Source: Candidatus Marinacidobacterales bacterium
Lineage (GTDB): Bacteria; Acidobacteriota; Vicinamibacteria; Marinacidobacterales; SMYC01
Direction: 5' to 3'
Assembly (NCBI GenBank): GCA_965224085.1
Contig: CBDCYI010000004.1
Span: 32,001-96,000, forward strand
DNA length: 64,000 nucleotides
Shown: positions 1-23,173 of the stretch, piece by piece
Layout of the letters: each line of letters starts with the position of its first letter
Position numbering within the stretch: the first letter of the stretch is position 1
Notes under the pieces: generated by a model
The model's input: only the letters and a program-made list of their open reading frames with translations
Told to the model about the DNA's origin: nothing
The model's database searches: none
Made by a program: the position numbers and the translations under genes

Positions 1-248
1 AACACCAACTCAAAATGACCTTCGAGCACATGCCACACCGGCTTCCAATACACTCCGGTCGCTTCCATCGCTACAATCGTGCAACCGCACTGCCCCAGCC
101 AATCCAACATTTCCAGCAATTCGCTCGTGGCCGTGCCGAACACACGCGTCTCGCGCACCACCTTCCGCTTCGACGCTACCCGCACGCAAGCCGTAATCGA
201 TTTCTGGTGGACGTCCAATCCGGCGCATCGCTTATGAACCACTCTCAT
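1..248 (-). CDS. IS110-family transposase, N-terminal part (runs off window edge; not in ORF track)
   Basis: Minus strand from ATG 248 reads MRVVHKRCAGLDVHQKSITACVR...VAMEATGVYWKPVWHVLE, the DEDD_Tnp_IS110 GLD/MEATG motifs; RBS GAAGGAGG upstream. Confidence 0.9.
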   Translation of the reverse strand, partial: MRVVHKRCAGLDVHQKSITACVRVASKRKVVRETRVFGTATSELLEMLDWLGQCGCTIVAMEATGVYWKPVWHVLEGHFELV

Positions 249-479
249 CGCAGCCTCCTTCACGTCGCACCGGCGTGGAGCCCACGAACTTGTAATCTAA
301 TAGACGCGCTCAACTATCCCAGCTGGAATAGAAAACGCAATTTGGGGTACGCGCAGGACTCCCAGCCAAACTTGACAACGGGCTCAGTCGCACCAACGTT
401 AAGCCGACCTCTGAGCCGGTGCCACCTTCACAGACTACCGCGTTTCATTTATTCGGGGTGACCGCCAGGCCGTGGAAAA
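249..479 (-). ncRNA. Non-coding left end of IS110 element, putative bridge RNA region
   Basis: ~230 bp non-coding region upstream of transposase; internal GTTGTCAAGT (379->370) repeats the flanking ATTGTCAAGT (488->479). Confidence 0.6.
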
Positions 480-777
480 CTTGACAATAACCGCGTCGAC
501 CATGGCGGAAGCTGCATGTAGGCGACGGCGACTCCTCTGCCGCAGGCTCGCCGAAGGTCACGACGGTTTGATCTCGAAGGCCGCATCGATGCCAGCGAAT
601 GCGAAGACTCTGGTCGCGTTCGCGGAGAGGGTCTGTCTCATTTTCTGAAGGGACACACCTCGCGCGACAGCCAGTCGCTCGGCTGTTGTGGTGGCATGCC
701 CTGCTCCGCCTATCGCGGAGCGCCATTGGCCGAGTCACGACCAAGAGGACAACGATGGAGCCTGATCAGAAGCCTGC

Positions 778-1548
778 ATGCAGTGCACCCTCAAGCGCGT
801 CTGGTCAAAATACTCGAACGCCCATCACCGCGAGAGGAATCATCAAGCCAAAGAGCTTCAAGCCGACGAGATTCGCACGTTCGCGGGCAACAAGAAGACG
901 CCGAGTTGGGTCTTCGTTACGATCGAGGTCTGGTCTCGGCTCTGGCCATCGACGGTGACGGGAAGGCGAAGCTACCGGAACACTCACGCTCTGTTTCGCG
1001 ACCTTTCGAAGCGGATGAATTTCGGACGTCTTCCCCTGATCGTCACGGATGGATTCGAATTCTACCAGAAGGTCATCCGTCGCTTCTTCGGTCCAGCGTA
1101 TCTTTACGGCCAGGTCCTCAAGACGCGCAGGAACGGTCGTATCATCAAGGTCGAACGGAGAGCGCTGCACGGAGCCGCGTGGCGATTCGAAGACGCGCTC
1201 AATAACTCCGAGGACTCCTCAACATTGAACACGTCGTTCATCGAGCGGTTAAATCTGACCATCCGGCAAAGCTTGGCATACCTTTCGAGACGAACGCTTT
1301 CCCACGCTCGCTCGACGGAGAGGCTCGATGAGCACATGGAATTGCTCCGTTGCTATTACAACTTCGTCCGACCGCACGGAGCTCTGAAGTTCGGACGTGA
1401 GATCCGAACTCCGGCTATGCAGGCCGGTCTGACCACGCGACGGCTCACCTTTCGAGACATCTTCTTGGCGACGACGATTCCTTTGTGGCTGCGGATCGAG
1501 GTTTTCCTGCTCACTGGGGCGCGCCAACCCGGTCTCTTCCGCACCTGA
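778..1548 (+). CDS. IS1-family-like DDE transposase (5' part degenerate)
   Basis: LQADEIRTF, IVTDGF, TSFIERLNLTIRQ, YNFVRPH, TPAMQAGL motifs. Confidence 0.75.
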   Translation: MQCTLKRVWSKYSNAHHRERNHQAKELQADEIRTFAGNKKTPSWVFVTIEVWSRLWPSTVTGRRSYRNTHALFRDLSKRMNFGRLPLIVTDGFEFYQKVIRRFFGPAYLYGQVLKTRRNGRIIKVERRALHGAAWRFEDALNNSEDSSTLNTSFIERLNLTIRQSLAYLSRRTLSHARSTERLDEHMELLRCYYNFVRPHGALKFGREIRTPAMQAGLTTRRLTFRDIFLATTIPLWLRIEVFLLTGARQPGLFRT

Positions 1549-1575
1549 ACCACTGCCCGCAGCCGCGTAGCAACA

Positions 1576-1875
1576 TATCTGGACTCCTCAATCAACACCT
1601 TTCTCAAAAAAGTCTTCCTCAGAGCTGCTCGTCCAAATCGGTGACGAGTGGGTCAGACTGCAAACATATCTACGGCCTCAGTGAGGAGCGTCTTGGGTGC
1701 TCCGGGCCATGACGGAAAATCCGCGCGCGAGGAGCCAATCACTTTGAGCGACCTCTGAGGGCCAGTGTTGCTATCGGCTTGACCCCGCGCCGGTCCGACC
1801 GGTACGCCATCAGTTGGAAGGGTATCGTCGCAGCCTCTGTTGGAAGGGAAGAAGGAAAACACGAGAGTGGAGCCT
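1576..1875 (-). ncRNA. IS1111 3' non-coding region, putative seek/bridge RNA
   Basis: Segments match the target (1764-1773, 1740-1744) and the predicted donor junction (1710-1717, 1665-1671). Confidence 0.75.
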
Positions 1876-2910
1876 CTATGCGGCCGCGGGCACCGACTGG
1901 AATTCACTCTCGCGGGTGGAGACGGCCCAGACTATCCGGGCGAGTTTGTTGGCGACAGCAATCGCGGCTTTGTTGTGTCCCCGCGAGCGGTGGACCTTCC
2001 GCGCCCAGGCGCGGAGCTTGTCGGGCGGGCTCTTGCTGACGTTGGCCGCTCGGAGCACGGCGCGTCCGCCCTGCGTGAGGAGCGTACGGAGGTAGGAGTC
2101 GCCACGCTTGGTGATGCGCCCGAGGCGGCGAATGTCACCACTGGAGTTCTCTTTGGGAACGAGGCCGAGGTAACTCGAGAAGCGGCGTCCCGATGGGAAG
2201 CGGCGCAGATCCCCAACGAAGCCGACGATGGCGGTCGCGGTCAAAAGTCCGATGCCGGGAATGGTGAGAAGTCGTTGCACCTCAGGAAGCTGCTTGGCGA
2301 GCGCCTTGAGCTCGTGCTCGATGCCAGCGCACTTGTCCTTGAGCTCTCGAATCTCGGAGCACGCATCACGCAGGTGCGGACGGAGCACGTCGGGCAAATC
2401 AGAATCAGCGTCTTCGACGAGCTCGGAGATGGCGGGCACGACGAAGTGAGCGCCCTTGGGGATGAAGAGTCCGAGCTCGCGCAGGACCCCGCGTACGGCA
2501 TTGATGCGTGCGGTTCGTGTGGAGAGCCATCCTGAGCGTAGGCGATGGAGCGCGGCGAGGGTGTGCTGGCGCACGGACTTGATGGGCACCGAAAGAATCT
2601 CCTCGTTCCGGTAAGCCTCGAGCAAAGCTTTGGTGTCCGCGCGGTCGTTCTTGCTCCCGCGTCGATACGGCCTTACGAGGTGAGGTGGGAGCAGGACGAC
2701 GTCGTGTCCCAACCGTCGCAACGTCCTTGCCCAAAAGTGAGCCGAGCCGCAGGCTTCGAGAAGCACGGTGGCAGCGCTCTGTTTCGCAAAAAACGACACC
2801 AACTTGGGTCGACTCACACGGAGTTGCTTGGACACCTTCCCCGCTTCGCGCGAGATGGCAATCTCGAAGACGTTCTTTGCAAGACCCACAGCGATCGTCG
2901 TATCTTTCAT
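1876..2910 (-). CDS. IS110/IS1111 transposase (first catalytic Asp reads Gly in this copy)
   Basis: IAV(G)LAKNVF, LEACGSAHFW, KNDRAD, IPGIG, GLVPKENSSG, AVANKLARI; start MKDTT after GGAG. Confidence 0.92.
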   Translation of the reverse strand: MKDTTIAVGLAKNVFEIAISREAGKVSKQLRVSRPKLVSFFAKQSAATVLLEACGSAHFWARTLRRLGHDVVLLPPHLVRPYRRGSKNDRADTKALLEAYRNEEILSVPIKSVRQHTLAALHRLRSGWLSTRTARINAVRGVLRELGLFIPKGAHFVVPAISELVEDADSDLPDVLRPHLRDACSEIRELKDKCAGIEHELKALAKQLPEVQRLLTIPGIGLLTATAIVGFVGDLRRFPSGRRFSSYLGLVPKENSSGDIRRLGRITKRGDSYLRTLLTQGGRAVLRAANVSKSPPDKLRAWARKVHRSRGHNKAAIAVANKLARIVWAVSTRESEFQSVPAAA

Positions 2911-3014
2911 TCGGACTCCTCCTTTTTCGATGCGTTCTTTCGACTGACTTTGGCACATCGATGCCGTCTATGTCAGCGGAGGAGTCCATCCCATCACTTG
3001 ATGGCGGAAGCACC

Positions 3015-3202
3015 CAGCGAGGAGTCCGCGGTCGCTTTGCTGTTTGGGCTTATCGCCTCTGGCCAGATTCAACTACGACGCATCGACGGCTACCAACGTC
3101 TGAGCGAGGTTCTCGAACACGCGGAGGTTGCCGCCTGATATGATACTCTGATGACGGAGTAGAGGGTGCTGTTCTTTTTCCACGGACCTCGGGACACATC
3201 CC
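3015..3202 (+). pseudogene. 3' remnant of a transposase (IS256-like) plus end
   Basis: ...LLFGLIASGQIQLRRIDGYQ...AA* followed by TTCCAC...CGGGACACATCC terminus-like sequence. Confidence 0.5.
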
Positions 3203-3487
3203 AAAAACTAGGCCCTTTTGAAATAGACCATGAATCAGCAGCTTAGTGTCTGTGTTTGCGCCCGGGCCAAGGGCCTAGCTCTGCTCCATGGTTGTCGCGG
3301 GCCCCACCGTCCACGCTGCATCGACTGTTCGCTTGTAATGTTGCCAGTGAATCAAGTTTTGGCACAGGACGCCGGGGTCCCGGTACGCCGTGGTACCCGC
3401 ACCGATCCGCGTGATATATTCTTGGGTCCGGAAACCGATGCAACGTGTCCACGGAGTTGAGAAAGGCCAAGAACTTGGGAGGTTTCA

Positions 3488-4078
3488 ATGAAAGACAATA
3501 GAATGATTGCCGAGTTGATATCGGAGTTTGTAGCACAGTTGGAGAAGCAGCTGCATGAGCTAAATTCACGAATTACTACTGTTCTTGCTGAGCCGGAGGC
3601 TTCTGAACCGGAGGCTGCCGAGCCAGAGGCTGCCGAGCCAGAGGCTTCTGAGCCAGAGGCTGCTGAGCCGGAGGCTGCTGAACCGGAGGCTGCCGAGCCA
3701 GAGGCTTCTGAGCCAGAGGCTGCTGAGCCGGAGGCTGCTGAACCGGAGGCTTCTGAGCCAGAGGTTGCTGAGCCAGAGGCTGCTGAGCCGGAGGCTGCTG
3801 AGCCGGAGGCTGCTGAGCCGGAGGCTGCTGAGCCGGAGACTTCTGAGCCGGAGGCTGCTGAGCCGGAGGCTGCTGAGCCGGAGGCTGCTGAGCCGGAGGC
3901 TGCTGAGCCGGAGGCTGCTGAGCCGGAGACTTCTGAGCCGGAGGCTGCTGAGCCGGAGACTTCTGAGCCGGAGGCTGCTGAGCCGGAGGCTGCTGAGCCG
4001 GAGACTTCTGAGCCAGAGACTTCTGAGCCAGAGGTAGACGATGGCGATTCGCAATCCCAGGAAGACCGCGCAAAGTAA
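3488..4078 (+). CDS. Acidic pentapeptide-repeat protein, (EPEAA)x30
   Basis: GGAGG RBS, 34-aa helical N-terminus, 30 EPE(A/T/V)(A/S/D) units, C-terminus [12 protein letters not shown]. Confidence 0.7.
3590..4039 (+). repeat. 15-bp coding tandem repeat GAGCCGGAGGCTGCT, 30 units
   Basis: Read directly from sequence. Confidence 0.97.
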
Positions 4079-22757: not shown

Positions 22758-23047
22758 TCCCAACCGTCGCAACGTCCTTGCCCAGAAGTGAGCCGAGCCG
22801 CAGGCTTCGAGAAGCACGGTGGCAGCGCTCTGTTTCGCAAAAAACGACACCAACTTGGGTCGACTCACACGGAGTTGCTTGGACACCTTCCCCGCTTCGC
22901 GCGAGATGGCAATCTCGAAGACGTTCTTTGCAAGATCCACAGCGATCGTCGTATCTTTCATTCGGACTCCTCCTTTTTCGATGCGTTCTTTCGACTGACT
23001 TTGGCACATCGATGCCGTCTATGTCAGCGGAGGAGTCCATCCCATCA
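22758..23047 (-). mobile_element. 5' fragment of second IS1111 copy
   Basis: Near-identical to 2707-2996; retains IAVDLAK; inserted at same CA core of a family C repeat. Confidence 0.92.
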
Positions 23048-23173
23048 CTTGATAGCGGAAGCACCGGCACAGGACGGGATGGCGATGCGAGACGATCGGT
23101 CAGGAGCATACTGCGGATCATCTCGTGCGACTCACCGTAGCAACTTTCGCCTAGCCGTTATAATCGGGGCCCC

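What the first reader, a model, noticed from the sequence alone, without database searches (positions are those of the whole stretch)
1561..3014. IS1111 element whose non-coding RNA region matches another IS's terminal repeat
Seen: removing the element at its CA core rejoins TAGCAA[CA]CTTGATGGCGGAAGCACC. This sits just downstream of the IS1-like transposase and belongs to repeat family C (7 copies, one from the aquaporin duplication). A second copy of the element sits at the same CA in a different family C variant (23046, CTTGATAGCGG). Read on the minus strand, the 3' non-coding region has four segments in order: UAGCAACAC (1773-1765), the reverse complement of one target half; AAGUG (1744-1740), the other half but only 5 nt perfect; UUCCGUCA (1717-1710); and AGAUAUG (1671-1665). 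The last two fit the predicted circle junction AGATA-TG-ATGGGA, the first imperfectly. The five empty C copies lack TAG at the guide-distal positions. The full copy has Gly at the first catalytic Asp, while the fragment has Asp. Established: IS110/IS1111 use bridge/seek RNAs, and IS4321/IS5075 target Tn21-family IRs. Inference: this element parasitises the ends of an IS1-like family.
Basis: partly seen in the sequence, partly recalled or inferred. Interest (0 to 1): 0.82.

Follow-up and report, generated by a model that had tools for sequence, protein, structure and literature searches.

The report
RNA-guided IS1111 element targeting IS ends
This is a 1.4-kb jumping gene of the known IS1111 type that carries its own guide RNA, and that RNA directs it into the end repeat of another, IS1-like jumping gene; it is a clear new example of a known mechanism, not a new kind.

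Summary
Window 1576-2996 (minus strand) is a 1421-bp IS1111-group insertion sequence. It has a DEDD/IS110 transposase, 9-bp subterminal inverted repeats, no target duplication beyond a shared CA/TG core, and a 300-nt 3' non-coding region.

That region holds a 161-nt structured RNA. In 19 relatives, 95% of pair cells are paired and 14 of 34 pairs show compensatory changes. The same model matches the 3' regions of ISPa25 and ISPa21.

Two guide segments sit in an internal loop and read the target TCAAG-TG-TTGCTA. Across 14 elements the guides covary with the elements' own flanks.

The target lies inside the terminal inverted repeat of an IS1-like IS/MITE family. It holds 5 of 11 left junctions in this genome, and 11 of 11 and 20 of 21 in two related genomes.

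The third segment lies in a conserved RNA stem, not a loop. About half the insertions in this genome are outside IS ends. The Gly-for-Asp change affects 2 of 9 copies that keep the N-terminus.

Verdict: a new member of a known kind, of moderate interest.

The parts
1576..2996 (-). Whole IS1111-group element, 1421 bp. The crossover is ambiguous within the CA/TG core.
   Evidence: There are 7 full-length copies at 98-100% identity whose flanks diverge exactly here. A metagenome contig skips exactly 1421 bases (weak).
1876..2910 (-). Transposase CDS (MKDTT... start at 2910; an in-frame upstream ATG lies at 2958).
   Evidence: Pfam DEDD_Tnp_IS110 PF01548 (39.2 bits) and Transposase_20 PF02371 (90.5 bits). 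NCBIfam 'IS110 family RNA-guided transposase', 300.4 bits against a cutoff of 140. The GLVPKENSSG motif is present.
2884..2886 (-). Gly codon (GGT) at the first residue of the DEDD motif. Most copies have Asp here.
   Evidence: Read. Copies compared (Gly in 2 of 9). The column is Asp in 8 of 9 aligned relatives. It aligns with the ID(T)AK motif of IS621 (weak domain score). Mutating D11 abolishes IS621 recombination (PMC11208158, passages).
2979..2987 (.). Left subterminal inverted repeat (GGACTCCTC in transposase orientation). The terminal extension lies at 2988-2996.
   Evidence: Read.
1581..1589 (.). Right subterminal inverted repeat. The terminal extension AGATA lies at 1580-1576.
   Evidence: Read.
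1650..1811 (-). Structured bridge/seek RNA module, 162 nt.
   Evidence: Covariance model R1 scores 147.2 bits here. Seven helices: 95% of cells paired and 14 of 34 pairs with compensatory change. The model also hits the 3' regions of ISPa25 and ISPa21.
1765..1773 (-). 5' target guide UAGCAACAC, complementary to the top strand of core plus right target. Its U is the last pair of helix P3.
1740..1748 (-). 3' target guide CUCAAAGUG. AAGUG matches the left target plus core exactly; UCA(A)AGUG matches TCAAGTG with one bulged A.
1710..1717 (-). UUCCGUCA. It is complementary to the left end TGATGGGA (6 Watson-Crick pairs and 2 wobbles), but CCGUC pairs with GAUGG at 1811-1807 in helix P1.
1665..1671 (-). 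AGAUAUG, same sense as the right end plus core. It is single-stranded, 3' of helix P5.
   Evidence: The guide reads AGAUA where the right end is AGATA and AUAUA where it is ATATA.
1568..1575 (.). Right half of the target (TAGCAACA on the + strand), which is the inner part of the IS1-like terminal repeat.
2997..3014 (.). Left half of the target (CTTGATGGCGGAAGCACC on the + strand), which is the outer 18 bp of the IS1-like terminal repeat ('family C').
778..1548 (+). 5'-truncated IS1-like transposase gene of the host element.
   Evidence: Pfam DDE_Tnp_IS1, 26.1 bits. It is 81.5% identical to part of a complete 1207-bp IS at C4:505269-506475.
22758..23047 (-). Second copy: a 290-bp left-end fragment next to a family C end (23048-23065).

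Best explanation
Window 1576-2996 is a copy of an IS1111-group insertion sequence. Its 3' non-coding region encodes a bridge/seek RNA of about 160 nt.

An internal loop of that RNA, between helices P3 and P4, carries two guides. [quoted passage not shown] Together they specify TCAAG-TG-TTGCTA.

This motif lies 11 to 23 bases inside one of the two terminal inverted repeats of an IS1-like IS/MITE family. The element therefore lands, in one orientation and with no duplication, inside those ends and splits them. It also lands in the rare other sites that carry the motif.

By analogy with IS621, ISEc11 and ISKpn4, movement runs through an excised circle whose RE-TG-LE junction recombines with the target. 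This step is inferred, not shown here. A 3' single-stranded segment (AGAUAUG) probably reads the right end. How the left end is read is unsettled.

The window copy has Gly at the first DEDD residue, so it is probably catalytically dead. Its RNA and ends are intact, so the Asp-bearing copies could move it in trans (inferred).
For: Family features:
- Transposase domains and NCBIfam model.
- Subterminal repeats and a 300-nt 3' non-coding region.
- The GL-P----SG motif.

RNA:
- On 19 sequences, 95.0% of 637 cells are paired against 87.1% in shuffles.
- 14 of 34 pairs have compensatory change, and 0 of 500 shuffles reach any of the five measures.
- Slid controls give 22-48% paired. The alignment was fitted to the model.
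- The model scores 96.2 and 90.9 bits in the 3' regions of ISPa25 and ISPa21. ISPa25's seekRNA region is discussed in PMC11187229 (section read).

Guides:
- Coordinates verified.
- Across 14 elements, the longest match of the 5' guide to the element's own right flank averages 6.79, against 4.66 for other elements' flanks. Only 1 of 20000 permutations does as well.
- For the 3' guide the figures are 3.50 against 2.82, and 66 of 20000.
- Natural retargeting: L031 has a 94%-identical transposase but the guides ACAAUCG and CAG-CG, and its flanks are TGATTGTTAT and CTCCAG.

Sites:
- All 11 genuine left junctions of 13 pattern hits end in AG|TG.
- 8 of 10 external right junctions read TG-TTGCTA with at most 2 differences.
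- The 6.87-Mb genome holds no unoccupied perfect 13-mer. Repeat variants reading GTGTTGGTG stay empty.

IS ends:
- 5 of 11 left junctions here, 11 of 11 and 20 of 21 in two relatives, 4 of 4 loci examined in a further genome, and 3 more sites elsewhere.
- Outer flanks all differ beyond GGTGC.
- Inverted pairs of the repeat bound a 1207-bp IS with an IS1-type transposase, and 260-276-bp MITEs.

Independent insertions:
- In 8 copies (28 pairs) the IS part is 99.4% identical and the MITE remainder 90.0%.
- The MITE part is the lower of the two in 28 of 28 pairs.
Against: - Nothing here shows the RNA is made or binds the protein. The RNA-library contigs laid may be DNA.
- Rfam gave no hit.
- Single-sequence folds are no better than shuffles (z -0.47 and -1.27).
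- The 3' target guide is only 5 nt perfect and needs a bulge to reach 7.
- The putative left-end guide sits in helix P1. That helix is kept by compensatory change (CG 12, GC 6, UA 1) while the left end stays TGATGG. In ISPa21 the helix is kept but does not match the left end.
- A helix that would close a donor loop has no covariation support (223 of 500 shuffles as good).
- Two external right junctions (C4:1157904, C4:999257) do not fit the target.
- No target-site duplication was seen around family C elements. The IS1 NCBIfam score (84.5) is under its cutoff of 100, so 'IS1-like' is a loose label.
- The covariation tests use related sequences, so the permutation counts overstate independence.
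Confidence: 0.88

Rival explanations
1. Hitch-hiking. The IS1111 element is cargo inside an IS1-like or MITE element and spreads when that composite is moved by the IS1-like transposase. Its constant position in the repeat would then reflect one old insertion, not repeated targeting.
For: In one related genome, the 16 full-length copies whose flanks were read (L032-L043, L046-L049) all sit at the same position of the same roughly 250-bp MITE family, each with different outer flanks.
Against: IS parts are 99.4% identical but the surrounding MITE parts only 90.0%, and the MITE part is lower in 28 of 28 pairs. In this genome 6 of 11 left junctions lie outside any family C end but share the 13-bp motif. 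The host elements differ: a full IS1-like element in the window and in G033, MITEs in G010. Relatives with other guides sit in other targets.
Confidence: 0.04
2. The transposase protein alone reads the target. The matches between the non-coding region and the target are leftovers or chance.
For: The 5-nt match is not significant by itself. No expression or binding data are available here.
Against: Guides covary with flanks across 14 elements. L031 has a 94%-identical transposase but a different guide and a different target. The guides sit in a loop framed by covarying helices. Published experiments on relatives show the RNA is essential and programmable (PMC11187229, sections read).
Confidence: 0.03
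3. The element aims only at a short motif, and its presence in IS ends is incidental. It is not a specialist of IS1-like ends.
For: 6 of 11 left junctions in this genome are in unrelated DNA. Only about 13 bp are read.
Against: The motif is expected about 0.2 times per genome by chance (my arithmetic), so the repeat is its main reservoir. 11 of 11, 20 of 21 and 4 of 4 junctions in three other genomes are in the repeat. Only the repeat variant with GCTA is hit.
Confidence: 0.1

Closest known systems
IS1111-attC group (ISPa25, ISPa21; ISKpn4 and ISPst6 as described in PMC11187229)
   Same: These are the nearest named transposases: 47.4% identity to ISPa25 and 42.9% to ISPa21 by tblastn. They share the element layout, with subterminal repeats built on GGACTC and a right end ATATA/AGATA. 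The RNA is homologous over its full length, at 96.2 and 90.9 bits. The guide order is also shared: the top-strand complement comes first (PMC11187229).
   Different: Those elements target attC sites of integron cassettes. This one targets an IS terminal repeat. Its 7 loop nucleotides read GCAACAC, not ACAAUGC or ACAAUCA. Its host is a sponge-associated Acidobacteriota lineage (record titles; run labels).
IS4321 / IS5075 (IS1111 family; target the 38-bp terminal repeats of Tn21-family transposons)
   Same: The lifestyle is the same: an IS1111-family element that inserts in one orientation inside the terminal inverted repeat of another mobile element. I know this from the title of Partridge & Hall 2003, seen in reference lists. 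I did not read the paper.
   Different: The host element is a different family (an IS1-like IS or MITE, not a Tn3-family transposon), and the target sequence differs. I made no sequence comparison with IS4321/IS5075.
IS621 bridge RNA system (IS110 group)
   Same: It has a DEDD plus Ser recombinase. Two guides in an internal loop read opposite strands and overlap at a core dinucleotide. A discontiguous guide has precedent (PMC11208160 passages; PMC11208158 passages).
   Different: In IS621 the RNA is at the 5' end and the guide order is reversed. Only the C-terminal domain aligns at the single-sequence level. No clear donor-binding internal loop was found here.
ISPpu9 modular minicircles
   Same: ISPpu9 has extra solo copies of its 3' RNA module and forms circles that hold the RNA gene alone (PMC12288879, abstract only). 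Here 15 full RNA modules stand against 11 transposase 5' parts, and right-end fragments are stacked in arrays.
   Different: In ISPpu9 the small RNA was not needed for transposition. Here the module is the presumed guide RNA. No circles have been observed here.

Membership tests
IS1111 group of the IS110 family | DEDD (RuvC-like) N-terminal domain plus IS116/IS110/IS902 C-terminal domain | tested here: met
   PF01548 39.2 bits and PF02371 90.5 bits. NCBIfam NF033542 300.4 bits against a cutoff of 140.
IS1111 group of the IS110 family | Subterminal inverted repeats with short asymmetric terminal extensions | tested here: met
   A 9-bp perfect repeat GGACTCCTC/GAGGAGTCC. Extensions are 7 nt plus core on the left and 5 nt on the right. 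The literature gives repeats of 7-17 or 11-13 bp and extensions of 7 and 3, so the repeat here is at the short end and the right extension is longer.
IS1111 group of the IS110 family | Long non-coding region downstream of the transposase gene | tested here: met
   300 nt, window 1875 to 1576.
IS1111 group of the IS110 family | GL-P----S(T)G motif in the C-terminal domain | tested here: met
   GLVPKENSSG; the G, L, P, S and G columns are invariant in 9 of 9 sequences.
IS1111 group of the IS110 family | Site- and orientation-specific insertion without target duplication | tested here: met
   All 11 left junctions have the same orientation and motif. Only the 2-nt core is shared between the two junctions.
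IS1111 group of the IS110 family | Circular intermediate with abutted ends | not testable with these tools
   All runs laid were contigs, and no RE-LE joint was reported.
Bridge RNA / seekRNA | Structured RNA with two guide segments, complementary to opposite strands of the target and overlapping at the core | tested here: met
   The guides lie in the internal loop between helices P3 and P4.
Bridge RNA / seekRNA | Guides covary with the target among relatives | tested here: met
   Permutation counts of 1 in 20000 (5' guide) and 66 in 20000 (3' guide) over 14 elements.
Bridge RNA / seekRNA | Second loop with guides for the element's own ends (donor) | tested here: inconclusive
   The right-end guide tracks AGATA versus ATATA. 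The left-end candidate lies in helix P1, and its match to the left end fades in distant relatives and in ISPa21. No closing helix was supported.
Bridge RNA / seekRNA | The RNA is expressed and bound by the transposase | not testable with these tools
   Only contigs of RNA libraries were available. They cover parts of the element but may be DNA.
IS1 family (host element, 'family C') | IS1-type DDE transposase | tested here: inconclusive
   Pfam PF03400 scores 35.7 bits against a cutoff of 24.1. NCBIfam transpos_IS1 scores 84.5 bits, below its cutoff of 100. The gene is a single 368-aa ORF.
IS1 family (host element, 'family C') | Terminal inverted repeats bounding the element | tested here: met
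   Imperfect repeats of about 28 bp at both ends of a 1207-bp IS and of 260-276-bp MITEs. Outer flanks diverge at GGTGC in 30 or more junctions.
IS1 family (host element, 'family C') | Target-site duplication of 8-9 bp (value recalled, not from a call) | tested here: not met
   No direct repeat was seen flanking the 4 of the 6 listed pairs that look like true family C elements, nor around the MITEs. This was checked by eye only.

The most novel reading that the evidence does not exclude
The long form of the IS1111-type guide RNA may keep its left-end (donor) guide locked in a conserved helix (P1). The other strand of that helix is an RNA copy of the element's own left end: UGAUGGCGU against TGATGGGAT. 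This built-in donor mimic would have to be displaced before the RNA can read DNA.

The same family may also spread its RNA module on its own. Stacks of right-end fragments that start at TG or CG, and 15 RNA modules against 11 transposase 5' ends, would be traces of mini-circles holding only the RNA gene that re-insert at the half-target left at the right junction.
Probability: 0.15. Interest if true: 0.65.

Novelty: new member of a known kind. Interest (0 to 1): 0.42.

Why it matters
This is a well-populated natural case of RNA-guided recombination in uncultured, sponge-associated Acidobacteriota. Across six genomes, about 50 distinct junctions agree with the guides read from the RNA.

It offers three things. 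It shows natural retargeting inside one clade: relatives whose flanks resemble attC sites, an element aimed at a palindrome, and this lineage aimed at an IS end. It gives a guide with a bulge opposite the left target. And it yields a covariation-backed structure for the 'long' seek RNA, whose role is still open in the literature.

It also shows one mobile element using the multi-copy ends of another as a safe landing site and splitting those ends. That should disable them, though this is inferred.

Tried and rejected
- Rfam: searching 1400-3200 gave only two chance-level hits (E 0.98 and 5.1).
- Thermodynamic folds of 315 nt and 162 nt are no better than shuffles. The structure rests on covariation instead.
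- RNAalifold on the MAFFT alignment paired CCGGC with GCGCGG. I replaced the outer part with a hairpin (12-15 with 22-25) because two sequences have compensatory changes there. The revised structure was then tested.
- A helix that would close a donor loop (columns 95-102 with 159-165) is 78.6% paired, but 223 of 500 shuffles do as well. Rejected.
- I asked whether the internal points where right-end fragments join are pseudo-targets of the guides. Only 1 of 7 ranks in the top 5% of positions in the element, and 4 of 7 rank below 70%. They share little beyond a TG. Rejected as RNA-guided target events; the arrays remain unexplained.
- An 11-mer search for family C with 1 mismatch gave 343 mostly unrelated hits and was dropped.
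- No target duplication was found around family C elements.
- A single-sequence PDB search aligned only the C-terminal domain. A 9-sequence profile aligned the N-terminal motifs weakly, at 6.6 bits.
- RNA-library contigs cover parts of the element, including a 338-nt contig across the right junction. This does not show transcription, and uncovered parts show nothing.
- Structure prediction, complex prediction, the protein atlas and the large protein searches were not used, because the family assignment was already clear.
- Supplementary files of papers were not opened. The supplementary figures of PMC11187229 (seekRNA folds of ISKpn4 and ISPa25) and Extended Data Fig. 10 of PMC11208160 (IS1111 donor guides) may already show helix P1 or a donor guide. 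I could not check this.
- I ran no literature search for an IS1111 element that targets IS1-family ends, so I do not claim that none is in print.
Full report
WHAT IS THERE

The window is C4:32001-96000 of a 6.87-Mb, 12-contig genome. Window 1576-2996 is a 1421-bp element read on the minus strand. BLAST against the genome finds 7 full-length copies at 98-100% identity, 2 near-full copies and a dozen fragments. Similarity stops at the same two bases in every context. In window + orientation the junctions read ...TAGCAACA|TATCTGG...CCCATCA|CTTGATGG..., so only the dinucleotide CA (TG on the element's strand) is shared between the two junctions.

The ORF (CDS 2910-1876) carries the Pfam domains DEDD_Tnp_IS110 and Transposase_20. 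It scores 300.4 bits on NCBIfam 'IS110 family RNA-guided transposase', against a cutoff of 140.

The ends carry a perfect 9-bp subterminal inverted repeat (2979-2987 and 1581-1589). The 300-nt non-coding region lies downstream of the gene, and the protein has GLVPKENSSG. These are the marks of the IS1111 group given in PMC11187229 (introduction and 'family features' sections read) and in PMC11208160 (passages).

The nearest named relatives are ISPa25 (47.4% identity) and ISPa21 (42.9%) on Pseudomonas plasmids.

THE RNA

Relatives were found in public genomes: 99% and 94% transposase families in two Marinacidobacterales MAGs, and relatives at 62%, 58% and 45-49% in other Acidobacteriota and a few other phyla. 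Their 3' regions align over about 160 nt.

I built a covariance model from 16 sequences with a hand-revised structure. I then re-aligned 19 matches to it (the window scores 147.2 bits at 1650-1811, minus strand). On that alignment:
- 95.0% of 637 pair cells are standard pairs, against 87.1% in shuffles.
- 14 of 34 pairs show changes on both sides.
- None of 500 shuffles reaches any of the five measures.
- Sliding the partners by 1-3 columns drops pairing to 22-48%.

The alignment was fitted to the model, which favours it. Even so, all 5 pairs of helix P2 show compensatory change, and so do 2 of 4 pairs in Pa and P4 and 3 of 5 in P6.

The model also matches the 3' regions of ISPa25 and ISPa21 end to end, at 96.2 and 90.9 bits. 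The RNA is therefore homologous to the seekRNA region of the attC-targeting IS1111 elements. Its 161 positions fit the published 'long' form of 145-170 nt, and the P2-P3-P4 arm fits the short form of 70-100 nt (PMC11187229 discussion). Rfam holds no matching family. Single-sequence folding energies are not unusual.

THE GUIDES

The first two lie on the two sides of the internal loop between helices P3 and P4. UAGCAACAC is the complement of the element-strand sequence GTG-TTGCTA, which is core plus right flank. AAGUG equals AAG-TG, which is left flank plus core. With one bulged A the match extends to UCA(A)AGUG against TCAAGTG. The order, top-strand complement first, is the one reported for IS1111-type seekRNAs.

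The strong test is covariation with the flanks:

| Element | 5' loop guide | Own right flank (reverse complement) |
|---|---|---|
| Window | GCAACAC | TAGCAACA |
| L031 | ACAAUCG | ATAACAATCA |
| L052 | ACAACCG | TAACAACCG |
| L058 | GCAGGGU | TAGCAGGGT |
| L059-L062 | ACACGGC | TAACACGG(C/T) |
| L067 | ACAGCGU | TAACAGCGT |

Over 14 elements, the longest common run between a guide and its own flank averages 6.79, against 4.66 for other elements' flanks. Only 1 of 20000 permutations does as well. For the 3' guide the figures are 3.50 against 2.82, and 66 of 20000. The elements are related and share a UAACA stem-loop edge, so these counts are indicative, not exact probabilities.

Several relatives also show a 1-2 nt bulge in the 3' guide, for example CUG(AU)CAG-CG against CTGCAG-TG. 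A discontiguous guide has precedent in IS621 (PMC11208160 passage).

L031 has a 94%-identical transposase but different guides and matching different flanks. It is a natural retargeting.

THE TARGET AND 'FAMILY C'

In this genome, 11 genuine left junctions (of 13 pattern hits) all end in AG|TG: TCAAG 7 times, TCGAG twice, GAAAG once and ACGAG once. Of 10 external right junctions, 8 read TG-TTGCTA with at most two differences. Two do not fit.

No unoccupied perfect TCAAGTGTTGCTA remains in the genome. Two sites with one mismatch at the last base are empty. So are the many repeat variants that read GTGTTGGTG, and the five empty family C copies in the window.

Five of the 11 left junctions lie in GGTGCTTCCGC(C/T)ATC(A/G)AG. 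That sequence is a mobile-element terminus, for these reasons:
- Sequence outside GGTGC differs at every copy.
- Inverted pairs of it bound a complete 1207-bp IS (C4:505269-506475) with a 368-aa single ORF. The ORF matches Pfam DDE_Tnp_IS1 (35.7 bits, cutoff 24.1) and, below cutoff, NCBIfam transpos_IS1 (84.5 against 100).
- Inverted pairs also bound 260-276-bp MITEs.

The two repeats of such an element differ at the guide-distal bases, GCTA against GGTG. Only the GCTA repeat is hit. I saw no target duplication around these elements, so 'IS1-like' is a working label.

In other genomes the association is nearly complete:

| Genome | Left junctions in the repeat |
|---|---|
| OZ240210 | 11 of 11 distinct |
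| OZ250169 | 20 of 21 distinct (the exception is the retargeted L031) |
| G033 | 4 of 4 loci read, of 33 matches |
| G012 and G003 | 3 more sites |

A 62% relative in G013 instead sits in a palindrome, GCAACTGCG...CGCAGTTGC.

The hitch-hiking alternative fails. In 8 copies the IS parts are 99.4% identical but the MITE remainders only 90.0%, and the MITE part is the lower in 28 of 28 pairs.

A DNA contig of a sponge metagenome run joins 1573 to 2995, which is the empty site. With only 20 letters on one side this is weak.

AGAUAUG (1671-1665) is single-stranded, 3' of helix P5. It tracks the right end: AGAUA where the end is AGATA in 5 elements (WIN, L033, L031, L052, L055). Most elements whose right end is ATATA have AUAUA; L067 has GUAUA and L065's end reads differently. 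That amounts to one change between two clades, so it is modest evidence.

UUCCGUCA (1717-1710) can pair with the left end TGATGGGA, with two wobbles. In the 94% family both partners differ (UUCCAUCA, TGATGGAA) and pair perfectly.

But CC(G/A)U(C/G/A) is also the 3' strand of helix P1. Its partner is the 5' segment (G/C/U)AUGG at 1811-1807. The outermost P1 pair is CG in 12 sequences, GC in 6 and UA in 1, while the left end keeps TGATGG. In ISPa21, P1 is kept through two further compensatory pairs although nothing in its left end matches.

So in the free RNA this segment is in a stem. Whether it opens to read the left end is open. The 5' strand of P1 looks like an RNA copy of the left end. A helix that would make a classic donor loop is not supported.

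THE Gly/Asp POINT

The codon at 2886-2884 is GGT. Of 9 copies that keep the N-terminus, 7 have Asp and 2 have Gly. The column is Asp in 8 of 9 aligned relatives. In a profile search it aligns with the first DEDD motif of IS621 (the N-terminal domain score is only 6.6 bits, but the D, E and D..D motifs coincide). Mutating D11 abolishes IS621 recombination (PMC11208158 passage). The window copy is therefore probably inactive but has intact ends and RNA.

DISTRIBUTION

8 of 61 related genomes searched, this one included, have a match at E <= 1e-30. The matches are patchy within the family. The 94% type occurs in two different families, which suggests horizontal spread (inference).

VERDICT

This is a new member of a known kind: an IS1111-group element with a bridge/seek RNA. 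Its habit of landing in another element's terminal repeat parallels IS4321/IS5075. Interest is moderate.

Noticed in passing
G000 C9:514556-517317 (L091); C4:1230824-1232926; C5:1162059-1163743; C11:839659-841141; L032, L040, L041, L047: A full element is followed by stacks of right-end fragments of 19 to 793 bp, many holding the whole RNA module. No left end is ever preceded by element sequence. In this genome 6 of 7 distinct join points start with TG; in the 94% family 3 of the 4 distinct join points (4 of 6 junctions seen) start with TG and the rest with CG. The genome holds 15 full RNA modules against 11 transposase 5' parts. The join points are not good matches to the target guides. One idea, untested: mini-circles holding only the RNA module re-insert at the half-target left at the right junction.
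   Followed up: partly
L031 (OZ250169.1:5243621-5249655): A sister element in the same genome as the 94% family has a 94%-identical transposase, but both target guides differ and its flanks match them. This is natural retargeting.
   Followed up: partly
L052, L055, L058-L070, L078, L093: Distant relatives have right flanks ending in GTTAGGC or GTTAGCC, like the flank of ISPa25, which sits between integron cassettes. They probably target attC-like sites. The window lineage would then have been retargeted from attC-like sites to an IS end. The attC core motif is recalled, not tested.
   Followed up: no
A2 columns for the 3' target guide and the right-end guide; In most relatives the two same-sense guides spell the core as CG, while the left junction reads TG. 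The window and L065 spell UG in both guides. The 94% family mixes UG and CG. The meaning of this first-core-base mismatch is unclear.
   Followed up: no
window 3-263 (minus strand) and 250-486: The N-terminus of a second, unrelated IS110-family transposase runs off the window start (PF01548, 38.9 bits). The adjacent 237 bp recur at 98-100% identity at 8 other places in the genome.
   Followed up: no
window 412-486, 3014-3201, 3204-3278: Three further short repeat families lie here: one of 75 bp with 28 further matches, one of 188 bp with 13, and one of 75 bp with more than 60. The neighbourhood is a mosaic of mobile DNA.
   Followed up: no
window 3488-4078 (+): This ORF consists largely of about 30 tandem pentapeptides of the form EPEA(A/S) or EPET(S).
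   Followed up: no
L100, L107 (G013): A 62% relative is inserted in the centre of a palindrome, GCAACTGCG...CGCAGTTGC, at two loci. This is another target class within the clade.
   Followed up: no
G033 versus G010: The same 94% type is present in many copies (33 and 22 matches) in genomes placed in two different families. This suggests recent horizontal transfer among these symbionts.
   Followed up: no
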